DNA of 64,000 nt from a virus. Shown piece by piece: positions 11,667 through 63,997 of this stretch. Each line of letters starts with the position of its first letter. Positions within the stretch are counted from its first letter, which is position 1. The notes beneath the pieces were generated by a model that was not told where the DNA came from, did no database searches, and worked only from the letters and a program-made list of their open reading frames with translations. Position numbers and translations under genes: made by a program. The DNA is taken from IMG/VR virus record IMGVR_UViG_3300045988_071280; one strand, 5' to 3'.

Positions 11667-11979
11667 AAATTAAGTGCCCCTATTTAATACAAATAAATAG
11701 AAAACCATTTGAATTGCTAGGAACTCGCGAAGATTTAGTAACTAAAACATCAGAAGAAATTCTAAATGTGAATGTTAAAAATACTAAATTATGTGATAAT
11801 TAGCAGCTAAGCTCCTAAGGATGTAATCTATGGAGAAAGTTCAACGACTATCTCGAAAGAGAGTAGGGCTAAGTAGCTCGAAGCGGATGGTATAATATTT
11901 TAATATTATAATGAAATAGTCTAATCTTACACGAAAGTGTAAGAGTATATATGGAAACGATATATACGTAATATAATTG
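11667..11979 (+). mobile_element. ORF-less group I intron in the helicase gene (313 nt)
   Basis: P1 pairs GGGT with GCCC. Q-like TTAGCAGC; R GTTCAACGACTATC near 11839; S GAAATAGTCT near 11913. The intron ends ...TAATATAATTG|GCAGGT. Confidence 0.8.
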
Positions 11980-26354: not shown

Positions 26355-27092
26355 ATGTACAATGATCAATCTAATGCTTTAGGAGAATTTATTTTTCAAT
26401 CTAAATATGCTAGATATAATTCTAATCTGAAAAGGAAAGAGACCTTTGAGGAATCTGTAGATAGAATATTACAGATGCATTTAAAACATCTTAAAGATAA
26501 ATATCCAGAAGTATTAAATAATGCAGAATTTAATAATGATTTATTAGAAGCCTTTGAGGAGTATAAAAATAAAAATGTTTATGGATCTCAGAGAGCTTTG
26601 CAATTCGGAGGTGATCCTATTTTAAGAAAGAATGAAAAAATCTTCAATTGTTCATATACTTATATAGATGATCTTGAGAGATTTAAACAAATTGAGTATT
26701 TACTATTATGTGGTTGTGGAGTGGGATGTTCTGTTGAATATAAACATGTGAATACACTTCCTGAGATGGCAGAAGTACTTAATAGTTCAGTTGAAGAGTA
26801 TATAATCGAGGATAGTATTGAAGGATGGTCAAATTCTATAGATAGACTAATTCGATATTATTTTAATTCGGATATAGCATATCCTAGATTTGATTATTCT
26901 AAAATCAGACCTAATGGAAGTTTGATATCAGGAGGATTTTTAGCTCCTGGCCCTGATGGTTTAAGAAATGCTCTAAATAAAATAGACTCTTTACTTAATA
27001 TTATTCATAAAACTACTAAAAGATTATCTCCACTTAACTGTGCTGATATATTATCACACTGTGCTGATTCTGTTCTCAGTGGTGGCGTCCGT
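26355..27092 (+). CDS. nrdJ: class II (RTPR-like) ribonucleotide reductase, exon 1
   Basis: FQSKYARY..RKETFEESVDRIL resembles the monomeric B12-dependent RTPR N-terminus. Breaks at VLSGGVR|. ATG 26355 is preferred over the tracked TTG at 26343. Confidence 0.7.
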
Positions 27093-27317
27093 TAGACATT
27101 GGCGGCTTATAATAGTAATATTATAATGATAATTCTGTGAATTCAGGGAATATCTTATATAGATAAGACAATCCTGATCCAAGCACTTAAATATAGTGAA
27201 GGAGCAACGACTATCCCAGACGTGGGAGTAGGGTAATATCATCTACCCGAAGCGCAGAACATCCTATTAAAGGATGATGATATAGTCTAAACTATATAGT
27301 GATATATAGAGTCTTTG
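27093..27317 (+). mobile_element. ORF-less group I intron rnr-i1 (225 nt)
   Basis: R GAGCAACGACTATCC near 27203 and S GATGATGATATAGTCT near 27275. A P9 hairpin CTATATAGTGATATATAG precedes ...AGTCTTTG|CGATGT. Confidence 0.75.
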
Positions 27318-28737
27318 CGATGTCTACGTGGAGACGATGATATAATAACTAATAAAGGATTAGTTAAATTAAAAAATATTAAAAATGGAGATTTAGTATT
27401 AACACATGATGGATCTTTTCAAAAAGTTATTAACAAGGAAAATAATGGGATTAGAAAAGTAGATAGAATAACTACGAATTTAAATATAAATTATTCTACA
27501 AATAATCATAGGTGGTTAGTATTAAATAATCTTTCTGGAGAATTTAAGGAAGTGTATGCATCAGATTTAAAAGAGGGGGATGTTTTATTATTAAATAACA
27601 GAAGTGTATCAGGAGAATATCAGGATTTTCCTAAATATACTGATTTAAAATTACCTAAATTAGATGAAGATTTAGCTTGGTTTATTGGATATTTCTTAGG
27701 GAATGGTAATGTATCTACTAGAACTAGATCTGATACTGGGTTTGAAGATAATAAATTTAGAGTTTGTATCCCAACTAATTACCCTACTATAGTTAATAAG
27801 GTAAAGAGTATCTTTGAAAAAATTGTTGGAACATATAGTATACATAAAAAGAAAAGTGCTATAGAACTTACATCAAGTAAAAAGTGTTTTGTTGAATATT
27901 TTCTAAATATCAAACAACCTAATACTCCAATCCAAATTCCGGATTTTATAAAACAGAATACATCATCTATACAATTAGCATTCTTAGCTGGAGTATTAGA
28001 TTCAGATGGAAGTGTTAGAAATGATAATAAGAATGGAAAAGGATATGGACAAATTACTTTAAATAGTTCTAAATATTCTATATTTATTACTCAACTTCAA
28101 GCTTTATACAATTTAAATGGAATTATTACTAAGACTCAAACAAAAATTAGAAAAGGAAAATCTAATGAGTATATTCTTAAAACAGTTTCATTTAAATATA
28201 GAAAAGAATGTGTAGAGAAATTAAGTCTATATTCCGAAAAGCTTAAGGAAGATTATATTTTAGAAGAAATTTCTAAAGAGAAAGACGGAATTTATTTTCC
28301 TAAATATTTAGCAATAAGAGGAGAAGGTAATAAGATTTGGAATAGTTGTAAAAGATGTTCTTTAAATAAAGTATTAGAATATTATCCAGATTTAAATTAC
28401 ATTCCTGCTGTAATTACTAATATAGAAAAGGACGTTGAAGAAGTAGAAGTATTTGATATAGAAGTAGAAAATAATCATAACTTTTATGTAAATGGAGTAC
28501 TAACACATAATTCTGCTTTAGCTATATTATTCTCTCCTAATGATGAGGAGATGTATAATTCTAAAGTAGGTAATTGGTTTTATGATAATCCTCAACGTGG
28601 AAGATATAATGCTTCTGTTGCTTTGGAGAGAAGTGATGATAATAAAGAAGTATTTAATAAAATCTTTGAATCTACTAAAGAATATGGAGAACCTGGGTTT
28701 TTCTTTAGGTCTGATTCTGGTATAGGATGTAATCCAT
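27318..28737 (+). CDS. nrdJ: RNR exon 2 (one Arg codon, intein, then SALAILF...GCNP + T)
   Basis: GGVR|R followed by the intein, then SA..., which completes the GGxRRSA motif. The exon ends with the first base of a Cys codon (phase 1). Confidence 0.75.
27321..28511 (+). mobile_element. LAGLIDADG intein (397 aa) in the RNR
   Basis: Starts CLRGDDDIITNKGLV with TNNHRW (block B-like). Has LAWFIGYFLGNGNV and LAFLAGVLDSDGSV. Ends FYVNGVLTHN, followed by extein Ser. Confidence 0.85.
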
Positions 28738-29007
28738 AAAATGATGTGGCTATATATAGTGATATATATAGAAAACTAGGCTAATTCGGGGAATCTCTTA
28801 TTTAATAAGACAATCCCGAGCTAAGTGATTAAATATTTAATCTAAATGTGTAACGACTATCCTGAAAAGGAGTAGAACCAAGTGGTTCGAAATGCCTAGC
28901 GTCTTATATTAAATATATAAGATGATGATATAGTCTAATCTCTATAGTGATATAGAGGATCTTTAATTAGATCAGATAAGAAGTAACGAGCTTATCTTAA
29001 TATAATG
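28738..29007 (+). mobile_element. ORF-less group I intron rnr-i2 (270 nt)
   Basis: P1 pairs CCAT with GTGG (28746-28749). R TGTAACGACTATCC near 28849 and S GATGATGATATAGTCT near 28921. Ends ...TAATATAATG|GTTTTG. Splits a TGT codon (T|GT), giving NPCFEIGF. Confidence 0.75.
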
Positions 29008-29399
29008 GTTTTGAAATAGGTTTTAAACCAGTATTAGAAATACAGAAACCTGATGGAGTATCTAAACAAACTGGGATACAGTTTTGTAATTTGATCTCCA
29101 TCTCAGGTAAAGAATCCACAACAGAAGAGAAATTCTATAAACAATGTAAAGCAGCTGCTACTATTGGAACAATTCAAGCTACATATAATTCCTTCCCTTT
29201 CTTAGGTGAAGTAACAGAGCAATTAGCTAAGAATGATCCATTAATTGGAGTATCTATTAGCGGGATTATGATGAATCCTGATATATTATTAAATAAAAAT
29301 ATTCTACGTAAAGGAGCTGAGATTATTAAAGAGCAAAATAATAAAATAGCTAACTTACTAGGAATTAATCCTGCATCTAGGACTACTTGTATTAAGCCT
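29008..29399 (+). CDS. nrdJ: RNR exon 3
   Basis: (C)FEIGFKP...FCNLISI...RTTCIKP|. The lengths of exons 2 and 3 sum to a multiple of 3. Confidence 0.75.
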
Positions 29400-29440
29400 A
29401 AAAATATGATTAAATAGTAGGTTTATAGTAAGACATTTTT

Positions 29441-29448
29441 TAATTTTG
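29441..29448 (+). promoter_or_regulatory. candidate -7 promoter element inside the intron
   Basis: TAATTTTG lies 33 nt upstream of the HNH ATG. Confidence 0.35.
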
Positions 29449-29481
29449 TAGTATTATAAAAAATACTTAAAATTAAAAAAT

Positions 29482-30516
29482 ATGAAATCACAATTAATAA
29501 TCAAATTAGAAAATTTAAAAAATTTAAAAACTCTTGTTGAAGAAGAACTATATTCTGCAAAGGATATATGTAACTTTCTAGAATTACCAGAAGAAAAAAA
29601 TACTATTAGAAATATTAATAGTTACTTAAGACGATATAAAATAAAGTCTCCTTATCCAAAAATAACAGATCGTAATTCTAGAATTATAGAAAAATATAAA
29701 TCAAAAGTACCTGAATGGTGGAATCATCCAAAATTAAAAACTGTAATTGAATTTAAACTAAAAAATAATTTAGTTATAAATTATGCAGATAAGGATAAAA
29801 AAATTGCTAGATATGTAATCTCTGTAAAATATCATCCAAGAGCTTCATCTGCAAATCAAGTAAAGGCTCATATTATATTATGGGAATTACATAATAAACA
29901 ATTATTTCCTGATAATTATGTAATGATTCCAAAAGACGGAAATTTTTTAAATTTAAATATTGATAATTTTGATGTAATGTCAAACGAAGAATATAGATCT
30001 ATCACAGCTACTAGTAAAAAAAATCATTTTTATACTACTGGTAGTAAATCTGGAGTATGTTATAAAGGAGGATGGAAAACTATCTCTAAAAAATTTCTTC
30101 AGACAAATACATCATGCGAAATATGTGGATGTTCAAATAAATATAAGTTAAATGTACATCATATAATTAGCTACTATTTATTTGATAAATCTAAGGATGC
30201 ACATTTTTTAGAAAACTTAATTTGTTTATGTGATTCATGTCATCAAAATCTACATTTAGGAAAATTAAACTTATTGGGCATCTTATCTGAAAAGATAAGA
30301 TTAAAACTTCTTAAATTGCTGGAAACACTTAAAGAAAAATTTAAAAATGATGATAAATTATTATTAGTAAATTTTTCAATTAAGTCAATCAGCAGCCAAG
30401 CTGATTTGAAATCAGAAGGTTCAACGACTATCTCGAAAGAGAGTACATCACAAGCTAATGGTGATGGAAATAGGAAGCATCTTAACTCAAATGAGAAAGA
30501 TGATGATATAGTCTAA
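29482..30516 (+). CDS. HNH homing endonuclease
   Basis: CEICGCSNKYKLNVHHII...NLICLCDSCHQNLH. The C-terminal ~40 codons are read from the Q, R and S core elements. Confidence 0.8.
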   Translation: MKSQLIIKLENLKNLKTLVEEELYSAKDICNFLELPEEKNTIRNINSYLRRYKIKSPYPKITDRNSRIIEKYKSKVPEWWNHPKLKTVIEFKLKNNLVINYADKDKKIARYVISVKYHPRASSANQVKAHIILWELHNKQLFPDNYVMIPKDGNFLNLNIDNFDVMSNEEYRSITATSKKNHFYTTGSKSGVCYKGGWKTISKKFLQTNTSCEICGCSNKYKLNVHHIISYYLFDKSKDAHFLENLICLCDSCHQNLHLGKLNLLGILSEKIRLKLLKLLETLKEKFKNDDKLLLVNFSIKSISSQADLKSEGSTTISKESTSQANGDGNRKHLNSNEKDDDIV

Positions 30517-30588
30517 TCTATATGGTGACATATAGCAGTTCATAGGAGAACGTATATAAGAGTTGCGTCTTATATAGAATATATAATG

Positions 30589-34996: not shown

Positions 34997-35233
34997 TGAT
35001 TTTTTGGCTCTTGTAAAACCTACTTAATTGACGGGAACATCCTTAGAGATTATCCTACTAAATTATAACAGTAATGTATATAATGGTGAGATTAACTACC
35101 TCAGTATAGTAAAAAAGGATAATATTGGACAATCCGCAGCTAAATTTCCATGTATGGAAAAGAGTTCAGAGACTATCTCGAAAGAGAGTACATTTAAATT
35201 ATTAAAATTTATTTGGAAACAGTAGGGTATTTA

Positions 35234-35265
35234 TTTGGACTTATGAATTTTTATGGTTACTTTTG
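35234..35265 (+). promoter_or_regulatory. Bacteroidota-type promoter inside the intron
   Basis: TTTG 35234-35237, a 20-nt spacer, then TACTTTTG 35258-35265, upstream of the GIY-YIG ATG at 35308. Confidence 0.5.
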
Positions 35266-35307
35266 TGTATTGAAATCAATATAAATAGTAACTTAAAAAT
35301 TCGTATA

Positions 35308-36066
35308 ATGGAACAATGTTATTTACCAAATCAAAAAGACAAATTAGTTAGGTTAGGATTTATTTATGCTTTAAAAAATCCTGACACAGGAGAAATTTTT
35401 TATGTAGGTGCTACCGAATCTACTCCAAAAGATAGATTAGCAGGACACTATAATCATTTTATAGAAGCTTTAGAAGGAAAGCGAAAAATGAATAAAAAAT
35501 TTGAATATTTTAAAAAAATTTATCCTAAAACAGCAGATTGGGAAGTATTAAAAATAGTAGAAAATGATTATTTATATAAGATAGAAGTAGAATATATAGA
35601 AAAATATTCAAAACTATGGAATTTAACTAATCAAACTAAAGGAGGAGAAGGAGGAGATACTTTTACAATGCAGGATTCTATTGCTAAAAAACGTATATCA
35701 GAATTAATATCTTCTAAAATTGTTGGGAGACCAAAACCAGAAGGTTTTGGAGAGAATTTATCTAAAGCTAGGATGGGAGGAAATAATCCAGCTGCCGGAA
35801 AAACTAGATATAACGTTGCAATTTTCAATAATAAAGAGGAGTTTATTAAAATTATTCACTACCCCTATGAAATTACTGATTTTCTTGATGGAGTTTTTCC
35901 GGAAGAGCCACATGAAAAACATGCTAAAACAGCTGGAAACGTAATGGCAGGAATAAGAAAAAACCAGAGTAAAACTTCAAAAAACAATGGTTATATATTT
36001 AAAGATGTTTCTATTTGTCCACAAGAAATACAAGATATAGTCCAATCTACAAATGAAAGTTTGTAG
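35308..36066 (+). CDS. GIY-YIG homing endonuclease
   Basis: GFIYALKNPDTGEIFYVGAT..R..GH, with NUMOD3-like GRPKPEGFGENLSKARMGGNNPAAGK. The C-terminus overlaps the S element. Confidence 0.8.
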   Translation: MEQCYLPNQKDKLVRLGFIYALKNPDTGEIFYVGATESTPKDRLAGHYNHFIEALEGKRKMNKKFEYFKKIYPKTADWEVLKIVENDYLYKIEVEYIEKYSKLWNLTNQTKGGEGGDTFTMQDSIAKKRISELISSKIVGRPKPEGFGENLSKARMGGNNPAAGKTRYNVAIFNNKEEFIKIIHYPYEITDFLDGVFPEEPHEKHAKTAGNVMAGIRKNQSKTSKNNGYIFKDVSICPQEIQDIVQSTNESL

Positions 36067-36073
36067 TATTATG

Positions 36074-54600: not shown

Positions 54601-55845
54601 ACCGTATATTATATTCTTATCTCTATTAAAATTTGGGATTAGTAATAAATCTCCTGGGACTAAGGAATATAACTGAGCTTCTGTGGTTAATTTAACAGGT
54701 TCTGAGTAATTTAAATTATATAAATCCTTCTTAGGATTACCTTCCGAATCTAATACTGTTGATTCATAATTCTTCCAGATTATTTCTGATATTTGTTGAT
54801 AGGATACGTTTTTAGATTTCGGGATTTCGAGTTCTATATAATAAGAATCATTTTTACCAACGAAAGGAACATTATCATATTCCCATCTATTATTTTCTCT
54901 AGAAAAATAAAAGAAATAATTTTTGTTAATTTTAGATACATTTCCATCCCATATTTCTTCTTTGTGTGTAGAATGATTATAATATTTTGTACCAACTAGA
55001 GGATATCTATTATTTAATGGATTTATAATTTCTAACTCTTGATTTGATCCTTGGATAAAAGGATTTATATCCATAGAAAATAATCTCCCAATAAACTCAT
55101 TAAATAAATCAGAGTTATTTATATTTAAAACATCTCTATATTTAGGTTCTGATACTAAATATGCAATAAATTCATTTAAGTCATAACTAGATCCTTTAGA
55201 TACTTTATTAACAAATTCCTTTATATAAGGATCTTTATCCTGATTTTGTTTAGCAGTAGTATATATATTATAAGCTATTTCATTTACTCTCTCAAAATTA
55301 GGATCAGATTTATTTATTTTAGAATAATATAAATGAAGTAGTTCGTGATATAAATCTCTAAGAGTAGCTTCATTAAATATTCCATTAGTTTTTAAGATAA
55401 TAAATTCATTATTTAATAAAGTCCCTCTAACATCTACATTTCCATCGATATTTAATGATTCTATATCTTCATCTAATAATAATATATTTGGTTGAGATGG
55501 ATTAATAGCATTCATATCTATTAACTTATTAATTAATAGAAGAAAATCTTCCTGTAAAGATTTATTAGGTACATAAGAAACTAAAGACCTAATATCATTT
55601 ATAGTGGCGTTTCCGATTAAAGGTTCTCCATTAGAATATACTACTTTAGTAGATAAAAGATTTAAATCTGAAAGAGTACTTAATAATGTATTTAAAGAAT
55701 CTATATCTAATCCAGAAATAGCCTCACTTAAACTAACTGCATTAACTTCGTCATATGAATTTAAGTTGGTAGGAATAATCCCACCAACTTTTTCTTCTCC
55801 ATCTACAATATATTGTATTTCTATGTTACATCCCATATTTAACAA
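51652..55845 (-). CDS. 1397-aa protein with two HExxH zincin-like motifs
   Basis: HELLH at 55333-55347 and HELMH at 52162-52176. The start overlaps the stop of the upstream gene. Confidence 0.6.
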   Translation of the reverse strand: MLNMGCNIEIQYIVDGEEKVGGIIPTNLNSYDEVNAVSLSEAISGLDIDSLNTLLSTLSDLNLLSTKVVYSNGEPLIGNATINDIRSLVSYVPNKSLQEDFLLLINKLIDMNAINPSQPNILLLDEDIESLNIDGNVDVRGTLLNNEFIILKTNGIFNEATLRDLYHELLHLYYSKINKSDPNFERVNEIAYNIYTTAKQNQDKDPYIKEFVNKVSKGSSYDLNEFIAYLVSEPKYRDVLNINNSDLFNEFIGRLFSMDINPFIQGSNQELEIINPLNNRYPLVGTKYYNHSTHKEEIWDGNVSKINKNYFFYFSRENNRWEYDNVPFVGKNDSYYIELEIPKSKNVSYQQISEIIWKNYESTVLDSEGNPKKDLYNLNYSEPVKLTTEAQLYSLVPGDLLLIPNFNRDKNIIYGKFDDDYFSYAKYHPIQSVWKNRNGETFITLVNKYGSNIGHFTISYTDLVKLSLEKNKQIVFRKLYGALKDPNLPEDLIKNIRDTYERNIESEDYNNQPLIKSIGFDRKGLSFKYYTVGKSGFKLDVSNGTNATITQELRQNDIIKLRSWNKEDENSEWDSFTYYAPVIRTIGTIVEVALKNKDGKYFTKKIPFRNIETVIFTKENHPDLDNIYNQFINDYDTYSLNTKDKSKYQSIWFNLNILKSDQQPYRKLEGDFSDNLDRESVIKYRRDKVRSLRIGDSISIEWDLKRTDGSPVISKHIVVGISGDRIYFLNRTTNDSAPKIGFVDLKTEFPLSENSKGQRINIPSLSAIHYNNTSDLELVEDLNIKKENASKAFTRVDDKIVFDPNSNYIPLKDLYYIINIDSSNAEQETAKLQRGDIIRFKENDITFIGVVSNYDPITGTIIVPGSYRSGYLKGRSFRKIVSPQQLEYIGFAINPNYELGIIGHKEISEYNKKRLSRLYDLNHSTYGYSLEEILKKKNLLNKSQDWVIEQEAVYVIPKNITEREFKESYQDSKKKTLPHGRVTLLTPTILDMIKNGELIDLTSEYIKANNVKDTKIYGLKNIRTGIQVNDSTGFYYDPRIYQRSPEQVINIIEVNDVVKIKYNDKFTKYLRIKSITDKGINLESEIVGLNGEIYNNSWYINFNDIKSGKYLISELYYPINKTRQKELENLSITDEVPQIKKVEYFTDTYDKFDKKKILNRVIENVNSTYNNIINVIDDAKIQELVDSENLNSTLADSFSRAGAFIWNGKIYVNINRADISSPLHELMHLIMGALRSKNYSLYSSLLDKVATLPEFNERFRNILTNRTLNDAKEEAFVEFIADSLSGVFSSEEFNINNLLSSTDFFGEYLKVLDSTLSLDLNTLPEKTSETLSRELSKMPIEKIITEFNSLLLSAGNKRFSLFNPENVSEAFKNRNITNIKSSLLNSKNPNTQLLEKC

Positions 55846-57962
55846 TTTATAATAAGTTTTATTTTATTAAGTCTCATTAGATCATTTAGAAGTTCAACTG
55901 TCTTAATAGCTTTTTCAGATTTATTAATAGTTTCTTTTAATTTATAATTGTAATTACTTCTTATTAGATAATATCTCTCATCTCCTAAAAGTTCTACATC
56001 CTTATAGCTCTTATTCTTATTATCATTTCCTAATCTTTCTTGTAATTGATATTTACCTAAGTTCTCATTATATACTTTTACATATTTATTATTTGAAACA
56101 AGAGCTTCGAAACTATCTTTAATTGGAGCCATTCTAAGAAGAACATCATCTATATTAACATCATCCATTGTTACTTTATCACTTTTTGAATCATAAATTA
56201 CTCCCGGAGTTATAGTATTTAAATCTAGTCCTCCAATGTATTTAAAGTAATCTACAATTAAACTTCCCGGATTAAATACTGATCCTTGTAATACTTTTAA
56301 TATACTATCTTGTCCTTTTCTTCCTTTATGAGTAATTAGATTATATATAAAAAACAAGTCAGATAATTTAATACCCCTAAATTCAACATTTTCAATTTCT
56401 CCAAATGCTGAAACTTGTTTATCAAATTCAGGATTGTTTATAGTAGTAACCATATTTATAGATGGCCTATAATATATATAATTAGATCCATCTAATTTAG
56501 AAGTATTATCAGTTATAATTAATCCATTTAAAAATGCGTTATTAACTAACTGCGATCCAAAAGTCATTACTCCTTTAGAATTAATTGTATATCCACTCTT
56601 TAACATTGGAATTACATAAGATTCCATATATAATTTAAAGGATGCTAAACCATCATCATTAGATAAAGAATAAGATGTTTGCTCAGTAGCGGTAAGCATT
56701 TCCCCATTTAAGAAATAATTTTGGCCTTTAGGAACTGAAATAGATAAATTTTTATTTTTTAAATATTTTCTAATTATTAATTCATCTATATAATCTCTAA
56801 TAATATTTAGTTGAGATTCAGATAATTTATTAGGCATAGTAATTTTACCAATTCTCCTTCTCATTATTATATTTTCTAAATTATCTATAATAGCGTTTGA
56901 TAATGCATATTTAACACTTCCTAATTTAGAATTTTGTTCATTTATATAATAAGCATTAATAAACGATTTATAATGTGGAAGAGAATTTATTAAATCAAAT
57001 ACATTTATTACAGACTTTATTAAGTTATAGAATTTAATAACAGACTCTGTATAATCAGGTTGTTCCAAGAACTTAGCTATATCAAACTTCATACTAGAAA
57101 AAGTTCCATTTGAAGACATTTTATCTAGAGCATCTCCAACTATAGAAGATAATTCTTGGTCTGTATATATATTCCCAATATTAGGATTATATTTTTTTAA
57201 TGCTCCAATGAAATCATTAGCTGTATCTCCAGTTAATTGAAGTTTATCTAACCCGTTTTGAATTAATGTATTAAAGGACTTACTGAAATTATATCTATCA
57301 TATTGCTTAGTCTTTATACCTCCATTAATTCCTAAAATTTGACCTAACGTAGCTATTTCTTTTGCTCCAGTGTAAGCTTTTACAAAGGTAGTAAAATTTG
57401 TTTTAGATTTTACTGATGAATCAAATAAATCTTTTAAATCCTTAAATTTCTTCACTTGTTTAAAATATCTAATCAAACCCTGCACTACTTCCTCAGAAGA
57501 TCTAACTAATGCTAATTCATCCCACTCTGACATAGAATCTAAGAATGTCAAAGCATACTCTTCATCAAGAAATCTCTCATTAACAAAATTATATTTAGTA
57601 GTTTCGAGATCATTGATAATTTCGTTTATATCATTTGATGTTAGTTCATTAAGTTTAAATGCGGAGATTATCTTAGAATTATATAATGTATTTAAATATA
57701 ATGAAACAGATTTTACATATCCTTTCCCAATAAAATTTGTAAGTGATGGTCCTTTTTCTATATTTCTTAATGTAGAATCTATAGTGGCGTATTGATCGTA
57801 CATTCTATTAACTGTAGCTGCTTGAACTATAGCATTAACCTCTGAACTAGTCATAAGATCTGAGATATTATCAAATGATAAGCCTTGGATTAATAAATAT
57901 ACATATACTCCAGCTAGATCGGGACCAGCATTAATCTTTGATAAGATCAATTCTTTAGCATT
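55839..57962 (-). CDS. giant RNA polymerase-like protein, exon 3 (707 aa)
   Basis: Begins NAKELILSK directly after intron-terminal G 57963. The tracked TTG at 57965 is an artefact. Confidence 0.65.
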   Translation of the reverse strand, partial: NAKELILSKINAGPDLAGVYVYLLIQGLSFDNISDLMTSSEVNAIVQAATVNRMYDQYATIDSTLRNIEKGPSLTNFIGKGYVKSVSLYLNTLYNSKIISAFKLNELTSNDINEIINDLETTKYNFVNERFLDEEYALTFLDSMSEWDELALVRSSEEVVQGLIRYFKQVKKFKDLKDLFDSSVKSKTNFTTFVKAYTGAKEIATLGQILGINGGIKTKQYDRYNFSKSFNTLIQNGLDKLQLTGDTANDFIGALKKYNPNIGNIYTDQELSSIVGDALDKMSSNGTFSSMKFDIAKFLEQPDYTESVIKFYNLIKSVINVFDLINSLPHYKSFINAYYINEQNSKLGSVKYALSNAIIDNLENIIMRRRIGKITMPNKLSESQLNIIRDYIDELIIRKYLKNKNLSISVPKGQNYFLNGEMLTATEQTSYSLSNDDGLASFKLYMESYVIPMLKSGYTINSKGVMTFGSQLVNNAFLNGLIITDNTSKLDGSNYIYYRPSINMVTTINNPEFDKQVSAFGEIENVEFRGIKLSDLFFIYNLITHKGRKGQDSILKVLQGSVFNPGSLIVDYFKYIGGLDLNTITPGVIYDSKSDKVTMDDVNIDDVLLRMAPIKDSFEALVSNNKYVKVYNENLGKYQLQERLGNDNKNKSYKDVELLGDERYYLIRSNYNYKLKETINKSEKAIKTVELLNDLMRLNKIKLIINC

Positions 57963-58285
57963 CAATTATGTTACTGTTATATCGTTTCCATATAACATCT
58001 CTATATTTCTATAGAAGTTCTGACTATATCTTAGCCAATAAGGCTCTCCCCATTTCGGAATTACTAATTCCTACGATACTCGATTCTATTTGTTTAAATA
58101 GTCTTTCTCTAGTCGATGCTCTTTTATCCTATTAGGATACTTAGATCAGGATTATCCAATCTTTATACTTGTTACTATACCTGAGTAATTAGTTCAGCCA
58201 TTTAAATATTACTATTTAAATTTAGTATATAAAGCTCTAAGGATGTTCCCTGAGTTAAAGGAGTTTTTTACAACAAACCACGCAT

Positions 58286-59353
58286 TTAATTAAAATATTT
58301 AAGTTTATATTTCATTTCTGGAATAATATAAGGTAATATCAATTCTTCGAAGTGTTTTCTGCTTTTCTCTTTGATATAAAAAAGATTCCAATTTTTGTCT
58401 TTTACAATTCGAATAGTGGTTTCAATATTAAATTTAGTTAATAACCACTTAGATAGTAGACTACATTCCTGTAAAGTAAAGGAACATGTAGCAATAGTCC
58501 CATTCGAACTCCCATCATCCATAAACCAATAAGCCAATGCTATTGGATGATAGATTTTGGATAGATACTCTTCTGTAACAGTTTTTACTTTATTTATATA
58601 AAGAATGTCATATATATTAGTGAATATGGGATGACTATAACTATTTCCTCTATACGTTTGATAAACATTTCCAGTTCTCGAATCTGGGGAAGGTGTTTCT
58701 AATCTATATGCTCCCATAAATTCCCCTAATATCTCAACCTTCTTCATAAATAACGCCTTTTGTTTGACGGAATGTACTATTGTTAGTCTTGAATTATTAT
58801 GTCTATTACTCTGTGGATGTGATAAATTTAAATCTCCTAAAAGAGAACCTAAAATCATTTGTTCCTGTTCTTCCGTTAGAGAGACATCTAATTGAGAGAA
58901 ATATCTTTGTTGTTTCAAATTTAATATTCCTCTATGTCTCCTAACAGTAGGAATAGAACAATTAAAATATTCAGCTAATTGTTCATCGGAATATCCAGAC
59001 TCAAATAGGTCTATTAATTCTGGATATTGATCTTCTGTAATAGACTTTAAAGATCTAGGTTGTATTCCTAATTTTCTAAGATGAAATCCTATAGTTTTCC
59101 CACTTTTACCTAGAATTTTTCCTATCTCTTCTGCTGTTTTTCCTTCTTCATAAAGAGATTTTATTTTTTCTAAATATTCCTTATCTACTCTAGTTTCACC
59201 TTTTCTAGATCTTCTAGTTACATTAGCTTTTCTTAAAATGTCCTGAATTGTTCTAGGGTTTTTTCCTTCTTTTTCAGCGATTTCTTTTGCTTCTAATCCT
59301 GAGTTGTACATATCTACAACTCTTTGAATGTATTCTTCACTACGTTTTTGCAT
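58286..59353 (-). CDS. LAGLIDADG homing endonuclease with three N-terminal HTH repeats
   Basis: ILGSLLGDLNL and AYWFMDDGS motifs, with repeated ..EIAEKEGKNPRTIQDILRKANVTRRS-type HTH units. Confidence 0.8.
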   Translation of the reverse strand: MQKRSEEYIQRVVDMYNSGLEAKEIAEKEGKNPRTIQDILRKANVTRRSRKGETRVDKEYLEKIKSLYEEGKTAEEIGKILGKSGKTIGFHLRKLGIQPRSLKSITEDQYPELIDLFESGYSDEQLAEYFNCSIPTVRRHRGILNLKQQRYFSQLDVSLTEEQEQMILGSLLGDLNLSHPQSNRHNNSRLTIVHSVKQKALFMKKVEILGEFMGAYRLETPSPDSRTGNVYQTYRGNSYSHPIFTNIYDILYINKVKTVTEEYLSKIYHPIALAYWFMDDGSSNGTIATCSFTLQECSLLSKWLLTKFNIETTIRIVKDKNWNLFYIKEKSRKHFEELILPYIIPEMKYKLKYFN

Positions 59354-59386
59354 AAAATTTTATTTGATTAAAAATTATTATTTATG

Positions 59387-59394
59387 CAAATATA
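59387..59394 (-). promoter_or_regulatory. candidate -7 promoter element for the intron endonuclease
   Basis: TATATTTG on the minus strand, 33 nt upstream of ATG 59353. Confidence 0.35.
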
Positions 59395-59451
59395 GATATT
59401 ATATTTTATTATTCCTAATGATTTCAATAAATATTTTGACGGCTTTGGATC

Positions 59452-60507
59452 AGTTGCTGCCGAGATTAAACTTGAGATAACGAGAGATTTGTCTTCTTGA
59501 AATCTATTTTGTGTAAGATCTATTGCATCTTTCACACTAATACTTTTATCTCTAGCTTCATTTAAAAGATCATATACAAACTCAATATCATCAAGATTAA
59601 TGTTAGCCAAACTATTTGTGAATAATTTAATGAGTTCCCCATCACTCTTCCCTTCATTTCCAGGAATATTTTTATAAATCTCAAAAACATTATTGAAATA
59701 TAAATTTGATTTTAATAAATCTTCTACAGTCAATCCTTTTTCAGCTAATTTTCTTATTTCCTGATTAAAGTACTGAGTTGCAGCTAAAAATACTTTTTGT
59801 CCTACAGCACTTATACCAATAACCTCTTTTCCAGCCATATTTTCGAAGAATAAGTTCCATTTAACAGACGGACAAAAATCAGTAACTGTTTTTGCATAAG
59901 CTCCAGCTTCTGATTTAGCAGCAGCAGCTTGTGGATCTCCCATACTAATAGGTGATTCAGCAGCTACAAGATTTTTAAAGTTATCGGAGATCTGATATAT
60001 CTTATTATATACGAAATTCTTTGTAGCGGATAAAAGTTTATTTGGACTTATTTCTTTAAGGTGTCTAGATATATCAATATCTAAATTCTCTATCATATTT
60101 GATATAAGTATTCTGGCACTTTCTATATCCTCATTCCTTGATTTATCATCTGAATTTTCTTTTATATAATTTAAATCATTAACTAAATCAGGATTGTAAT
60201 ATAATTGTATATTAGTTTGTTTGAATCTATCTACCTTATTTAAAACGTCTACAGCTAATTTTAATCTAGTATTATCCCCATCATATTCTCCGTTTAAGAT
60301 AGATGAGATTTCAGAAGTTATATCTATATAAGGTATTTCCGGATTTATTTCAGAAGTTATTGTATATTTTAAATCTGAATTTGGAAATGGTAATTGTTTT
60401 GAGAGTTCAAATGATTCATTATCTCTATAATTAAATAACGATGACCATGCTTCATAAATTCCATTTTTATTTATTAAAGGCATTGTCATGTAGACTTTAT
60501 CAATATC
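59452..60507 (-). CDS. giant RNA polymerase-like protein, exon 2 (about 352 aa)
   Basis: Starts DIDKVYMTMPLINK immediately after intron-terminal G 60508. The 3' end is uncertain (see intron rnap-i2). Confidence 0.65.
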
Positions 60508-60844
60508 CGTTTGACCTTTATATTTTCATATAAAGACTGACTATATCATCACTTTTAAAGTGCCTCCCGCTTCGGATTATTTAAATCCTACTCTACTAAG
60601 TTCTATTTAAATATTAAATAGCTTTTCGATAGTCGATGAACTTTTCTCTTATATAAGAGACTTAGCTGCGGATTACCCAATCTTAACACTTTTTACTGTA
60701 CTGAGGTAATTATTCTCACCATTTAAATATTACTATTTAAACTTAGTATATTAAGCTCTAAGGGATTTCCCGCAATTCAAGAGGTTTATTATAGTGATTA
60801 CAATTTTATACTGTCGTCTAACTCAAACTTAAAAATTTAGACCA
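60508..60844 (-). mobile_element. ORF-less group I intron rnap-i1 (337 nt)
   Basis: A perfect 9-bp P1 forms between exon AGTGATTAT (60853-60845) and GTAATCACT (60801-60793). Q GGGTAATCCGCAGCTAAG, R GTTCATCGACTATCG, S GATGATATAGTCAG. Ends ...GGTCAAACG|GATATT. Confidence 0.85.
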
Positions 60845-63800
60845 ATAATCACTACCTTCCAGCCATGTTTGATACAAGCTGACATAAGCTTCATTACTTT
60901 CTGCATCAGAAAATCCTACTACATCCATTGCCATAATAGACTGAAATGCTTGTGCAGGAATACGATTCGCTGTTATTTTTAAACTCTCAATAAATGATCT
61001 ATATATCTTCTTAGAATCTCTTTTGATTCTTTTATTTATGTAATTATTATATTTATCATTTAACTCTTCTATACTACTATTATCTATATCTAATTCTTCT
61101 CCCAATCTTGAATCTGTCATATTTATATAATCTCTTAACTCTTTAATATTATCAGAATTAAAATTATACCATATTCCTATATAATCGTCAGAAGAATTAA
61201 ATACATTAACTAAATTCCCTAAATTAGAAAGATCTACAACAATTACTTCTTGAACTATTCCATTACTAGTATCCTGATAAAAATGAAGTCCAGATGTTTT
61301 ATATACAGCTTCTCCATTTTCATTTAATCTCCATTCTTCTCCATCTATAACTTCTGTTAATATTTCTATTGGAGTTAGTGAAGATATATAATTTTCAGAA
61401 CTAGGCTTATTTATAATAATTCTAGTATTATCTAAACTATTCTTTAAAAATTCTATATCATTTGGAAGAGGATCTGATTTAGCTTTATTATATGTTCTTA
61501 ATAGTTTCTGTCTAAAGTACTCCCCATCACTATTAATAATATTCGCAATATTATCTCCAGTTCGTAATCCGAATATAGATTGATATACCTTAGATATTAC
61601 AGCCTGTGCTCTTTTTATATTTAAATCATGTATTCTTACTCCTTGAAGTCCTTCGCCAAATTCTATTATATCATTATTATCTATAATTGTTTGATATTCA
61701 GGCATTCTAGGATCTAATAACATAATATTCTCATCCAACAATCCAATGTATCTATTAACAAAGTGTTGAAGTGCTAGAATTTCCTCTTTAGATGCTTTAG
61801 ACTCTCTTAATCTAAACATATCTTCGATTATCGGATGGTCATAAATATTATATTTCTTATTTACTCCATCAATACTCCAAGTAGCTCTAAAAGGTTGAAG
61901 TTCTTTTCTGATTCCTTTTAAATTAGTTACTGTAGTATTTAAATTTCGATAATGTTTAAATTTATCATAAGTATTTATATCCACCTGTTCTCCGGTAGTA
62001 GGATCTAATATAATATCGCCAAACTCTATTAAATCCGTAGATATTTCTTGTGTTAAATTTCCTGTTTCTAAATATCTATCTAAACCAGATTTAAGAATAT
62101 TTCCATTTTCATCAGTAAAAGAATAATAACCAGCTTCATTAGCTATATGTATTAAATCTTCCTGAGAATAATACCCTCTTAAAACATTTCTATTAGAATC
62201 AAATAAATTCTCAGATCCATCAAAATAATAATGTTTTATAGATCCATAAGAAGGAATCATTACAGCTCCCATACCAGAGAAGGTTCTTTTAATACTATCA
62301 GAGTTCATTTTAGATGCTAACATAGTTATAAAAGAACTATTTATACTTCCGGAACTAAATGGAATTTTAAATCTTAAATCTCTAGCATTAAATAATTCAT
62401 TATTTAAATTCTCCTCAAACTCTCTTGCAGCTTCTTCTAAATAACCAGTAATTACTCCATCTCCAGAGCTCCCTTCGAAGGCTTTAATAGTTGCTTTAGC
62501 TAGAAGTTTATATAATAATGTTTTATTAGCTTCTCCTAATTCTGTAAGAGTTTCTAAGTTATTAGCTTGATTATGTGCTTCAAAATACTTCTTTAAAGTA
62601 GTATTTACTACAGAACCTAAAGCTCTATAAGCTGCATCAGCTAAATCTGATGTATATCCATTAGCTGCTAAAGTACTAATAATCTGAGTAGATTCAGTAA
62701 CAGTAGATAAATCAGCATGGTGATCTGCATCCATTTGAATACCCATGAATTGTGTACCAACTCTACCATAGGATAAAGGAGTATCATCGTATCTAGCACT
62801 AGCTGGATTTGTATTAAACGCTCCAACTTTTATTGATGTTCCATTTGCTAGATAATGTATATCAGAGTATTTAAGAGGTTGATATATATAATTCTGATCT
62901 AGTATTACTCTTAATTTTCTTTGTTCGTCTAATATATAACTAGAATCTTCTGGAATATTGTTAAATGTAAATGGAAGATCTTGTTTAGATATAATTGTAT
63001 TTAATAAATCTAAATCACCATTAACCATATTTAATAGATCTCTCTTAGTTATATAATATCCGGTTTTATTCATAAACTGTACTGTAGCATTTACAGAAGC
63101 CTCTCCTTTATCTCCGGAATTAGTTAAATAAGGATCTAAAGGATTAGAATTATCTAATGAATAAGAATACTCTCCACCTAGAGCTTTCCATAATTTATAA
63201 TTACTATCTATTACTACAGTTCTTGTTACATTTTTACTATTTTGAGTATCTCCTCCGTTTTTATTAACTCTTCGTTCTATAATATTATAAGTATTATTTC
63301 CTAGAGATTCTAAATCAATTATTCTATAATATTCTCCATTATTCGTATTATAATAATATAAATCCTCGGATATAATATCTCTAAGATGACGTTTATTACC
63401 ATTAAAATCTTGCATTAAATTAATAATAGGAACATCCCATTTTCTATCAGTCATTTTTTGCAACAATTTAACTTTCTCTGGAGACTTTCTCATTCGATAA
63501 TTAGTTATAGAGAATATAGCACATTTCATTAATAACCCATTACCAAATTCAGGATCTACATTATATCCAAAATTCTTTCTATTATATCCAGCACTAGAGC
63601 TAAACATTGAATTATTCTCTAATACATTCTGAAATGGATTACATTCCATAGAGCCATCTAATACCTTTACATTATCAGTCTCCCCAGAAGGATTAAATAC
63701 AGGAGCTTCTATATCTTTGATAATTGCTACATTTATAGTTGGAGTTGTTCCTTCTAATGCTTTTTGATAATAATTGTGTATAGTAGCTTGCATAGCAACC

Positions 63801-63997
63801 ATACGTTTATATTGAGCTAATAATCTATTAGCATGATCCCGGATAAAATATTCCGGATTTATAGATCCATCGGAATTTAAATAATACACACCTCTTAATT
63901 TAGATGGATGTGCATAAGGTTCTCCTACACTTACTTGAAGGAATTGGTTAGATAAGAACCCATCTAAAAAGAAATATTTTTCTAATATAGGATTCAA
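60845..63997 (-). CDS. giant RNA polymerase-like protein, exon 1 (N-terminus lies beyond the window)
   Basis: Open to the window edge. The C-terminal part NRIPAQAFQSIMAMDVVGF...SLYQTWLEGSDY resembles the catalytic double-psi beta-barrel leading into the metal-binding motif. Confidence 0.7.

What the first reader, a model, noticed from the sequence alone, without database searches (positions are those of the whole stretch)
57963..60844. Two sibling introns in the same giant gene, one empty and one with an endonuclease in the P1 loop
The cores of rnap-i1 and rnap-i2 are near-identical over about 45 nt. The plus-strand sequences are CCATTTAAATATTACTATTTAAA[CT]TTAGTATAT[TA]AAGCTCTAAGG at 60719-60765 and 58199-58245. 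They are clearly homologous elsewhere too. In rnap-i1 the guide sequence follows the 5' splice site after a 43-nt loop. In rnap-i2 the homologous guide position (GGTTTGTTG, 58279-58271) lies just after the 1068-nt LAGLIDADG ORF. The ORF with its promoter therefore appears to occupy the P1 loop, which is an uncommon location. This suggests intragenic intron duplication followed by endonuclease gain or loss.
Basis: partly seen in the sequence, partly recalled or inferred. Interest (0 to 1): 0.7.

Follow-up and report, generated by a model that had tools for sequence, protein, structure and literature searches.

The report
Two related phage self-splicing introns
Two related self-splicing group I introns, one of them carrying a homing-endonuclease gene in its first loop, interrupt the two most conserved motifs of a giant crAss-like phage gene; they belong to a widespread mobile intron family that the standard Rfam RNA model misses.

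Summary
On the minus strand a giant gene is split by intron i1 (60844-60508, 337 nt, no ORF) and intron i2 (59448-57963, 1486 nt).

- **Intron identity.** Intron-less relatives fix both junctions (GSDY|DIDK and SAATD|NAKEL). A hand-built group I model is 96% paired across 24 distinct relatives, with 38 of 72 pairs showing compensatory changes. Rfam RF00028 finds neither intron.
- **Endonuclease position.** The I-SceI-like LAGLIDADG gene does lie between the 5' splice site and the guide sequence. The guide covaries with the exon's Thr codon in six lineages, across more than 1.1 kb in the five ORF-bearing ones. Close relatives carry the same intron with the ORF, without it, or lack the intron precisely.
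- **Relatedness.** The two ribozymes are about 71% identical. The near-identical 45 nt lies in a peripheral P5 extension, not the catalytic core.
- **Origin.** A duplication within this genome is not supported. i2 is equally close to site-2 introns of more distant phages, is a patchwork, and ORF-bearing site-2 introns are widespread.
- **Promoter.** The promoter claim is only a consensus match.

This is a new member of a known kind. Its wider value is that ORF-less introns of this family could explain reported breaks in crAss-like polymerase genes.

The parts
60845..63997 (-). Exon 1 of the giant gene. It is cut off by the window end and finishes ...GGT AGT GAT TAT (GSDY).
   Evidence: ORF list and spliced translation. 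Homologues read through GSDYDIDK without interruption. In relative L001 this exon is 2130 aa.
60508..60844 (-). Intron i1: 337 nt, a group I intron with no ORF, inserted inside the DxDxD-type motif (DY|DID).
   Evidence: Junction fixed by the intron-less homologue P0003 and by many homologues of about 3000 aa. Structure and covariation. Helix coordinates. No Rfam hit even at E<=10.
60802..60844 (-). L1 (P1 loop) of i1, 43 nt.
   Evidence: Read directly from the sequence.
60793..60801 (-). Internal guide sequence of i1, GUAAUCACU. It pairs with exon AGUGAUUAU (60853-60845) and puts a U.G pair at the splice site.
   Evidence: Compensatory variants: L001 has exon AGUGACUUU with guide GAAGUCACU. 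L032 has exon GACUAU with guide GUAGUC.
59449..60507 (-). Exon 2, 353 codons, from DIDKVYM... to ...SSLISAATD.
57963..59448 (-). Intron i2: 1486 nt, a group I intron with an endonuclease ORF in L1, inserted between the invariant residues D|N of SAATDNAKEL.
   Evidence: P0001 (98% identical) and P0002 (72%) read straight through the site. The site is a precise join in 8 related contigs.
59354..59448 (-). 5' leader of L1 in i2, 95 nt. The exon-2 reading frame runs on to a TAA at 59370-59368. The leader contains TTGAAA-18-TATAAT (59427-59398) and TATATTTG 41 nt before the ATG.
   Evidence: The stretch GTCAAAATATTTATTGA..ATTAGGAATAATAA is shared with the ORF-less variant.
58286..59353 (-). Homing-endonuclease gene, 355 aa: three N-terminal helix-turn-helix repeats followed by a double-motif LAGLIDADG nuclease of the I-SceI type.
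   Evidence: Pfam PF03161, E 8e-30, plus HTH families. PDB I-SceI 1r7m, E 5e-17, over residues 150-351. 327 homologues at E<=1e-5.
58271..58279 (-). Internal guide sequence of i2, GGUUUGUUG. It pairs with exon CAACUGAU|C (59456-59448), with a U.G pair at the splice site and one U.U mismatch.
   Evidence: It occupies the same position as the guides of six site-2 lineages, which covary with the Thr codon.
57963..58270 (-). Ribozyme body of i2: P3-P9 plus a P9.1 hairpin that i1 lacks, ending in the terminal G at 57963.
58198..58242 (-). The 45-nt stretch that is almost identical to 60719-60763. It spans P5, P5a and the GUAA-capped hairpin P5b.
   Evidence: P5b is 21/21 identical between i1 and i2 but only 11/21 against L010.
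60719..60763 (-). The i1 copy of that 45-nt stretch.
55839..57962 (-). Exon 3, NAKELILSKINAGPDL... to the stop codon.

Best explanation
i1 and i2 are two members of one family of mobile group I introns. Both interrupt the same giant gene of a crAss-like phage, presumably its virion RNA polymerase.

**Anatomy.** The ribozymes look like subgroup IA: hairpins P7.1 and P7.2 lie between P7 and the 3' strand of P3. They have no P2 and carry a three-hairpin P5 extension. i1 sits inside the DxDxD-type motif and i2 inside the invariant SAATD|NAKEL motif.

**Splicing (inferred).** Each is removed from the pre-mRNA by guanosine-initiated self-splicing. In i2 the whole homing-endonuclease gene lies in the loop of P1, so the guide sequence has to pair with a 5' splice site 1.17 kb upstream.

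**Mobility (inferred).** The I-SceI-type endonuclease presumably cuts intron-less alleles during co-infection and copies the intron in. This would account for the presence/absence pattern seen among near-identical phages.

**Coupling (inferred).** The ORF ends 6 nt before the guide here and overlaps it in some relatives. Translation of the endonuclease and formation of P1 are therefore probably mutually exclusive on a single transcript.

**Origin (inferred).** The two introns share an ancestor that already carried an endonuclease in L1, and they have exchanged segments since. i2 was not made by a recent duplication of i1 in this genome.

**Shown versus inferred.** Shown: junctions, structure, covariation, P1 pairing, the position and family of the ORF, population polymorphism, and mosaicism. 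Inferred: actual splicing, cleavage, the translation/splicing conflict, and the direction of the evolutionary events.
For: **Junctions**
- P0001 and P0002 read through site 2. P0003 and many homologues of about 3000 aa read through site 1.
- Both insertion sites fall in invariant columns of a 20-protein alignment.

**Structure**
- 96.0% of cells are paired, against 38-48% when the 3' partners are slid by 1-3 columns.
- 38 of 72 pairs show changes on both sides, and none of 500 shuffles reaches the observed values.

**P1**
- Three compensatory variants exist at site 1.
- Six exist at site 2: ACCGAU/GUCGGU (twice), GACUGAU/GUCAGUU, GACAGAU/GUCUGUU, AACUGAU/GUCAGUU, and the window's CAACUGAU/GUUUGUUG.

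**ORF in L1**
- In all 9 ORF-bearing family members examined (window, L003, L018 twice, L027 site 1', L039-L042), the ORF ends from 9 nt inside the guide to a few nt before it or the ribozyme core.

**Polymorphism among contigs 89-99% identical in the exons**
- i2 absent: 8 contigs.
- i2 present without the ORF: 2 contigs.
- i2 present with the ORF: 5 contigs.

**Endonuclease**
-.

**Mosaicism**
- Of 74 informative sites, 35 favour i1 and 39 favour L010. They are clustered in runs (permutation p = 0.002).

**Phage affinity**
- The best hits of the family-A DNA polymerase are crAss-like phages, at 44-54% identity.
Against: - No experimental or transcript evidence of splicing is available.
- Rfam RF00028 does not score either intron, even at E<=10.
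- P1 of i2 has a U.U mismatch and two G.U pairs, so it is weaker than in relatives.
- A short alternative pairing, UGAU/GUCA, lies 9 nt into i2.
- The polymerase identity of the host protein could not be confirmed by sequence or fold.
- The clustering test for mosaicism is inflated because paired helix positions do not vary independently.
Confidence: 0.85

Rival explanations
1. One reading: i2 arose by duplication or ectopic transposition of i1 within this gene in this phage lineage, and then acquired the endonuclease gene.
For: - A neighbour-joining tree places the i1 and i2 clades as sisters.
- P5b is 21/21 identical, and the P7.1 hairpin is shared by i1 and i2 but not by L010.
- i1 or another site-1 intron is present in every close relative that covers the site, whereas i2 is sporadic.
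Against: - i2 is 72% identical to the site-2 intron of a more distant phage and 71% to i1. Informative sites split 35 to 39.
- P4, P5c and P9.1 of i2 are of the site-2 or site-1' type.
- Site-2 introns with a homologous endonuclease in the same L1 position occur in phages whose endonucleases are only 46-53% identical. The combination of site 2 and ORF is therefore older than this lineage.
- The site-1' endonuclease is homologous over both the HTH and nuclease parts, at 34% identity. An ancestor already bearing an ORF is thus more economical than a late gain.
Confidence: 0.12
2. These are not functional introns. The gene would be fragmented into separately translated pieces, or be a pseudogene. 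The LAGLIDADG gene would be a free-standing endonuclease between fragments, and the conserved RNA-like sequences would be relics.
For: - Rfam does not recognise i1 or i2.
- Published analyses of Zeta-group crAss-like phages describe polymerase ORFs broken by stops and frameshifts, and invoke unknown mechanisms (PMC7886860).
Against: - Relics would not keep 96% pairing with compensatory changes in every helix.
- Nor would they keep guide sequences that track synonymous codon changes in the exon.
- The exon frames join exactly to the sequence of uninterrupted homologues at two invariant motifs.
- Exon 3 has no start codon in a sensible context. The frame opens directly after the terminal G.
Confidence: 0.03
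3. The near-identical 45-nt patch reflects functional constraint on a tertiary-contact module (the GUAA tetraloop hairpin), not recent exchange between the two introns.
For: The loop GUAA and the flanking CCUUAGAG...UACUAA are invariant or nearly so across the family.
Against: Other family members build the same hairpin from different stem sequences through compensatory changes. Five of eight P5b pairs covary, and L010 matches at only 11/21. Primary sequence is therefore not constrained.
Confidence: 0.15

Closest known systems
Subgroup IA group I introns of phage protein genes (T4 td, nrdB and nrdD; three introns in one gene of Staphylococcus phage Twort). From my own knowledge; reviewed in PMC3984707.
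   Same: Self-splicing introns lie in conserved motifs of phage replication and nucleotide-metabolism genes. P7.1 and P7.2 are present. Some carry an endonuclease ORF and some do not. Several related introns can sit in one gene. Presence or absence varies among close relatives.
   Different: There is no P2. The ORF is in L1 rather than in the P6, P8 or P9 loops. The endonuclease is LAGLIDADG rather than GIY-YIG or HNH. RF00028 does not detect these introns.
Nuclear rDNA group I introns with the endonuclease gene as a P1 extension: myxomycete S1389 introns (PMC8395846) and Physarum PpLSU3 with I-PpoI (the latter from my own knowledge).
   Same: The endonuclease gene lies between the 5' splice site and the guide sequence, so P1 closes over a kilobase-scale loop.
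   Different: Those are subgroup IC1 introns in eukaryotic rRNA genes and encode His-Cys box enzymes. Here the intron is IA-like, sits in a phage protein gene and encodes a LAGLIDADG enzyme, and in some relatives the ORF overlaps the guide.
I-SceI and the yeast mitochondrial LSU rRNA (omega) intron
   Same: The nuclease domain is the closest solved relative (E 5e-17): a monomeric double-motif LAGLIDADG enzyme encoded inside a group I intron.
   Different: The phage protein has about 150 extra N-terminal residues forming three helix-turn-helix repeats. The host gene, the ribozyme subgroup and the ORF position all differ.
Intron-rich Zeta-group crAss-like phages (Yutin et al. 2021, PMC7886860)
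   Same: - Gut-metagenome phages, with related contigs of about 82-173 kb.
- Many group I introns.
- A LAGLIDADG intron ORF drawn within the transcription gene block.
- Polymerase ORFs broken inside the DxDxD motif.
- Gene boundaries that vary among close relatives.
   Different: That study found introns through their protein domains only. It left the ORF-less breaks unexplained ('unknown expression mechanisms'). Here the RNA structure, exact junctions, ORF-less members and ORF position are worked out. That the window belongs to the Zeta group is inferred, not shown.

Membership tests
Group I intron | P1 is formed by the 5' exon end and an internal guide sequence, with a U.G pair at the splice site. 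| tested here: met
   i1 forms 9 bp and i2 forms 8 of 9. Compensatory exon/guide changes occur in 3 lineages at site 1 and 6 at site 2.
Group I intron | A conserved core of P3-P8 with the P3/P7 pseudoknot, supported by covariation. | tested here: met
   96% of cells are paired against 38-48% in slid controls. 38 of 72 pairs are compensatory. P3 has 5/6 covarying pairs, P6 5/6 and P8 4/4.
Group I intron | A guanosine-binding P7 with the J8/7-P7 consensus, and a terminal G at the 3' splice site. | tested here: met
   GACUA/UAGUC is invariant in 24 sequences. (A/U)GAUAUAGUC precedes it. The introns end in G at 60508 and 57963.
Group I intron | A score above the gathering threshold of Rfam RF00028. 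| tested here: not met
   No RF00028 hit in 57500-61300, even at E<=10. Three other introns in the window score 80-99 bits. This reflects a limit of the model, as also noted for phage introns in PMC11878797.
Group I intron | Guanosine-dependent self-splicing. | not testable with these tools
   This needs in vitro transcription or RNA data.
Subgroup IA (Michel-Westhof classification) | P7.1 and P7.2 hairpins lie between P7 and the 3' strand of P3. | tested here: met
   Both hairpins are present. P7.2 has 3 of 5 covarying pairs.
Subgroup IA2 (T4-type phage introns) | A P2 helix lies between P1 and P3. | tested here: not met
   Only 7-8 unpaired nucleotides (AUAAUAAA or UAAAAAA) separate the guide from P3.
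LAGLIDADG homing endonuclease (I-SceI type) | A Pfam LAGLIDADG_2 domain above its cut-off, and two LAGLIDADG motifs with acidic residues. | tested here: met
   104.4 bits against a cut-off of 25. The motifs LLGDLNL and WFMDDGS are in the translation. I-SceI matches at E 5e-17.
LAGLIDADG homing endonuclease (I-SceI type) | Site-specific cleavage of the intron-less allele. | not testable with these tools
   Only the indirect signature is available: precise presence or absence at the site among 89-99% identical contigs.
crAss-like virion RNA polymerase | A DFDxD catalytic motif in a giant protein of the transcription gene block. | tested here: met
   The motif is DYDID in the window and DFDID in L001. 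GSD[YF]DIDK is invariant in homologues of about 3000-3600 aa. The motif definition comes from bioRxiv 10.1101/2020.03.07.982082.
crAss-like virion RNA polymerase | Sequence or fold similarity to a solved two-barrel polymerase. | tested here: inconclusive
   phmmer and a profile search of the PDB gave nothing relevant. The AlphaFold2 model had a mean pLDDT of 66, with low confidence at the motif, and Foldseek gave no hit at E<=0.001.

The most novel reading that the evidence does not exclude
The breaks reported in the polymerase genes of Zeta-group crAss-like phages fall inside the DxDxD motif, and the gene boundaries differ between close relatives. They have been attributed to 'unknown expression mechanisms'. 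They could instead be caused by this family of compact group I introns, which lack P2 and are invisible to Rfam. Many members have no ORF. Some are stacked 6-16 nt apart, which in some relatives leaves a 16-nt micro-exon. In ORF-bearing members the endonuclease gene fills the P1 loop and abuts or overlaps the guide sequence, which would give a built-in switch between endonuclease translation and splicing.
Probability: 0.5. Interest if true: 0.65.

Novelty: new member of a known kind. Interest (0 to 1): 0.55.

Why it matters
Three things follow if this is right.

- **Annotation.** A whole family of phage group I introns escapes the standard Rfam model. ORF-less copies therefore show up only as unexplained stops and frameshifts in essential genes. 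A covariance model built from this family would let the giant transcription genes of intron-rich crAss-like phages be annotated correctly. It would also test whether the 'unknown expression mechanisms' proposed for them are simply splicing.
- **A natural series of alleles.** Near-identical phages carry no intron, the intron without the ORF, or the intron with the ORF, and three insertion sites lie within 22 nt. This is a ready-made system for studying homing, endonuclease loss and retargeting.
- **A mechanistic question.** It is unclear how P1 forms efficiently across 1.2 kb of translated RNA. The position of the ORF right against the guide sequence makes that question experimentally approachable.

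Tried and rejected
**Searches that found nothing useful**
- Rfam at the gathering threshold and at E<=10 found nothing for i1 or i2.
- Megablast of the 8.2-kb region against GenBank phages gave no match.
- Pfam and PHROGs on the host exons gave no family.

**Attempts to confirm the polymerase identity (all failed)**
- phmmer of the spliced protein against the PDB gave no hit.
- A profile of 8 homologues against the PDB gave only a chance hit at E = 0.12.
- AlphaFold2 on a 9-sequence alignment gave a mean pLDDT of 66.
- Foldseek against the PDB then gave no meaningful match.

**Other checks**
- Contig NFYZ01000001 was not found in the supplements of Yutin 2021 or in the paper library. Motif strings were not found in those supplements either.
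- My first covariation run used one bracket type, which mis-paired P3 and P7 because they form a pseudoknot. I reran it with separate brackets.

**Readings considered and rejected**
- A guide sequence near the 5' end of i2 (GUCA, 4 bp, 9 nt into the intron). The homologous guide position next to P3 covaries with the exon in other lineages.
- A free-standing endonuclease between split genes. Intron-less alleles join the exons exactly.

**Not attempted:** I used nhmmer profiles instead.
Full report
**What is in the sequence**

The region lies on the minus strand inside a chain of long ORFs: 63997-60818, 60489-59368 and 57965-55839. Between them are a 337-nt gap with no ORF and a 1.5-kb gap holding a 355-aa ORF.

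They match at 43 of 45 positions, and shuffled sequence gives no match. Similarity extends well beyond them. The repeat finder reports 138 nt at 78%, and alignments give about 71% identity over some 280 columns.

**Splice junctions**

Reading the frames gives this model:
- exon 1 ends ...GGT AGT GAT TAT at 60845;
- i1 is 60844-60508;
- exon 2 is 60507-59449, 353 codons;
- i2 is 59448-57963;
- exon 3 starts at 57962.

The joined product reads ...WLEGSDY|DIDKVYM... and ...ISAATD|NAKELILSKINAGP..., with no stop before the natural end of the gene.

Database homologues settle the junctions. P0001 (98% identical) and P0002 (72%) read straight through SAATDNAKEL. P0003 (29%) reads through both WLQGSDYDIDK and SAATDNAKEL. 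An exhaustive search found 741 homologues, typically 3000-3600 aa long. In a 20-protein alignment, G-D-D-D of GSD[YF]DIDK and S-ATDNAKE of SAATDNAKEL are invariant columns. Both introns therefore sit in the two most conserved motifs of the protein.

**Are they group I introns?**

Rfam RF00028 does not report either one, even at E<=10 on the 3.8-kb region. It does find three other introns in the window at 80-99 bits.

The sequence nonetheless shows the textbook elements:
- AAUUGCGGGAAA and AAUCCGCAGC, the two strands of P4;
- CAUCGACUA and GAUAUAGUC, the two strands of P7 with J8/7;
- a terminal G.

I collected relatives in two ways. An exact-pattern scan of IMG/VR returned 33 loci. Contig look-ups for the host protein and for endonuclease homologues returned more. 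I aligned 24 distinct ribozymes and scored a hand-built model. The model comprises P3, P4, P5, P5a, P5b, P5c, P6, P7, P7.1, P7.2, P8, P9 and P9.1, with P3/P7 written as a pseudoknot.

Results of that test:
- 96.0% of cells are standard pairs, against 38-48% when the 3' partners are slid by 1-3 columns.
- 38 of 72 pairs carry changes on both sides.
- None of 500 shuffles reaches the observed values.

The ribozyme has P7.1 and P7.2, the mark of subgroup IA, but no P2. Only 7-8 unpaired nucleotides link the guide sequence to P3. i1 lacks the P9.1 hairpin that i2 and most relatives have.

**P1 and the position of the endonuclease gene**

In i1 the guide GUAAUCACU (60801-60793) pairs perfectly with exon AGUGAUUAU, putting U.G at the splice site, after a 43-nt loop. 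Two relatives carry different synonymous exon sequences with matching guides:
- L001: AGUGACUUU with GAAGUCACU;
- L032: GACUAU with GUAGUC.

In i2 the guide GGUUUGUUG (58279-58271) occupies the homologous position just before P3. It pairs with CAACUGAU|C at the 5' splice site 1.17 kb upstream, with one U.U mismatch.

The decisive evidence comes from other site-2 introns:

| Lineage | Exon | Guide |
|---|---|---|
| L039 | ACCGAU | GUCGGU |
| L040 | GACUGAU | GUCAGUU |
| L041 | GACAGAU | GUCUGUU |
| L042 | ACCGAU | GUCGGU |
| L010 (no ORF) | AACUGAU | GUCAGUU |

The guide follows the Thr codon across the whole ORF, so the ORF is topologically in the P1 loop.

In all nine ORF-bearing family members examined, the ORF ends just before or inside the guide, or just before the ribozyme core. 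The guide starts 6-7 nt after the stop in the window and L042, and 4 nt after it in the L027 site-1' intron. The ORF overlaps the guide by 8-9 nt in L039, L040 and L041.

**The endonuclease**

It is a double-motif LAGLIDADG enzyme: Pfam LAGLIDADG_2, E 8e-30. Its closest solved relative is I-SceI, at E 5e-17. Three N-terminal helix-turn-helix repeats precede the nuclease domain. At least 327 homologues with the same architecture exist, mostly on contigs of 100-240 kb.

**Population variation**

Among contigs 89-99% identical in the exons:
- i2 is precisely absent in L001, L002, L007, L012, L023, L029, L031 and L034;
- i2 is present without the ORF in L019 and L021;
- i2 is present with a 99%-identical ORF in L027, L030, L032, L037 and L038.

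The ORF-less form has a 62-nt L1. It shares GTCAAAATATTTATTGA..ATTAGGAATAATAA with the ORF-bearing form. The ORF cassette therefore lies between that point and the guide.

Site 1 varies as well:
- the window-type i1;
- the same i1 preceded 16 nt upstream by a further small intron (see 'Noticed in passing');
- in L027, L038 and L003, a different ORF-bearing intron inserted 6 nt upstream (GS|DY; guide GCUACC).

The endonuclease of that last intron is 34% identical to the i2 enzyme over both the HTH and nuclease parts. This is the signature of active or recently active homing.

**Are they siblings by duplication?**

They are clearly homologous, and a neighbour-joining tree puts the i1 and i2 clades together. 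However:
- i2 is as close to the site-2 intron of a more distant phage (L010, 196/273) as it is to i1 (197/277).
- It is a patchwork. P5b is 21/21 identical to i1 but 11/21 to L010. P5c is 20/21 to L010 but 12/21 to i1. P4 is of the L010 type. P9 is 22/22 identical to the site-1' intron.
- Informative sites split 35 to 39 and occur in runs, with permutation p = 0.002. Paired positions are not independent, so that value is optimistic.
- Site-2 introns with a homologous endonuclease in L1 occur in phages whose enzymes are only 46-53% identical.

The most economical history has three steps. An old family already bore an ORF and diversified onto neighbouring conserved sites. ORFs were later lost in some copies, including probably the i1 lineage and the L019 type. 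Co-resident introns exchanged segments. A recent duplication in this genome is not needed and fits the data less well.

**Promoter**

TTGAAA-18-TATAAT at 59427-59398 is the best sigma-70-type match in the region. Such matches are not more frequent than in shuffles: 22 found against 18.7 +/- 4.2 expected. The -10 half lies in the cassette, and the -35 half lies in sequence shared with the ORF-less form.

A TATATTTG motif lies 41-49 nt before the ATG in the window, L039 and L041, but not in L040 or L042. It resembles the Bacteroidota -7 element as I recall it. The background frequency is 0.67 per kb per strand, so it is only a lead.

**What the host gene and the phage are**

I could not confirm the polymerase identity by sequence or fold. 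It rests on three things:
- the DYDID/DFDID motif, which matches the DFDxD motif stated for crAss-like virion polymerases in bioRxiv 10.1101/2020.03.07.982082;
- the size of the protein, about 3180 aa in L001;
- the block of giant genes around it.

The window's family-A DNA polymerase has crAss-like phages as its best hits, at 44-54% identity. Related contigs are 82-173 kb long.

Yutin et al. 2021 describe a Zeta group of crAss-like phages of 145-192 kb with up to 14 group I introns, and they draw a LAGLIDADG intron ORF in the transcription block. [quoted passage not shown] A 2023 review repeats this (PMC10136315).

Those authors found introns through endonuclease domains. The ORF-less i1 documented here sits exactly in that motif, and Rfam misses it. 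It is a concrete candidate explanation. That the window belongs to the Zeta group is my inference.

**Comparison with what is known, and verdict**

Each individual feature has a precedent:
- group I introns in conserved motifs of phage genes;
- several related introns in one gene;
- polymorphism for the endonuclease ORF;
- endonuclease genes placed as P1 extensions, seen in myxomycete rDNA introns (PMC8395846).

What is new is the family itself. It is IA-like, lacks P2, is invisible to Rfam, and carries an I-SceI-type enzyme consistently in L1, right against the guide sequence. I found no description of these ORF-less ribozymes or of the ORF's position in the papers searched here. I rate it a new member of a known kind. 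Its interest is moderate, raised by the link to an openly stated annotation puzzle.

Noticed in passing
window 34997-36073 (+): A third member of the same ribozyme family interrupts the Dda-like helicase gene at HKS|QGS (nhmmer E 1.8e-34). Rfam gives only 27.5 bits, below its threshold. Its P1 is exon AUAAGAGU with guide GCUCUUGU, and its L1 is only 10 nt. Its ORF (35263-36066; phrog_314 'homing endonuclease', E 1.4e-8; no Pfam hit) lies after P7 and runs through P7' and P9. The same ribozyme family therefore carries a different ORF in a different loop.
   Followed up: partly
window 11667-11979 (+): A fourth family member has no ORF and is 313 nt long. It splits a DnaB-like helicase in its P-loop (ADSG|AGKS). 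Its P9.1 loop and 3' end (GUAAUAUAAUUG) are almost the same as those of i2. It matched the nhmmer profile at E 2.4e-11 and was not reported by Rfam at the gathering threshold.
   Followed up: partly
window 27083-30535 (+): Three group I introns detected by Rfam (80-99 bits) lie in a ribonucleotide reductase gene. The third overlaps an HNH endonuclease ORF (29482-30516). The first is distantly similar to the i1/i2 family (nhmmer E 1e-12). The 64-kb window thus contains at least seven group I introns.
   Followed up: partly
L032 about 4715-4447 (-); also L008, L012, L022, L023, L024, L029, L034: In these close relatives a further small group I intron of about 265 nt sits 16 nt upstream of i1. 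Its P1 is exon AUAUGGCU with guide GGUCAUAU. A 16-nt micro-exon (CCAAGGTTCGGACTAT) is left between the two introns. The window lacks this intron.
   Followed up: partly
L027 3383-4845; L038; L003 about 1-1178: A different ORF-bearing intron occupies a site 6 nt upstream of i1 (GS|DY; guide GCUACC). Together with the site of the small intron above, this gives three distinct insertion sites within 22 nt of the DxDxD-type motif.
   Followed up: partly
L039 5078-5086; L040 5078-5086; L041 5085-5092: In these relatives the last two or three codons of the endonuclease ORF and its stop codon overlap the internal guide sequence. Translation of the ORF's end and formation of P1 must then compete.
   Followed up: yes
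window 59370-59351 (-): The exon-2 reading frame continues 26 codons into i2 and stops at TAA 59370-59368, only 14 nt before the endonuclease ATG (59353). Expression by termination-reinitiation on unspliced RNA is possible. In L039 the equivalent gap is about 65 nt, so the arrangement is not conserved.
   Followed up: no
window 59394-59387 (-); L039 and L041 upstream of the endonuclease ATG: TATATTTG (TAnnTTTG) lies 41-49 nt before the endonuclease ATG in three of five site-2 introns. It resembles a Bacteroidota -7 promoter element as I recall it. Background frequency is 0.67 per kb per strand.
   Followed up: partly
window 1-64000: ARAGORN finds no tRNA genes in the window. G+C content is 23-30% throughout. 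The GC skew changes sign near 46-48 kb, where gene orientation switches.
   Followed up: no
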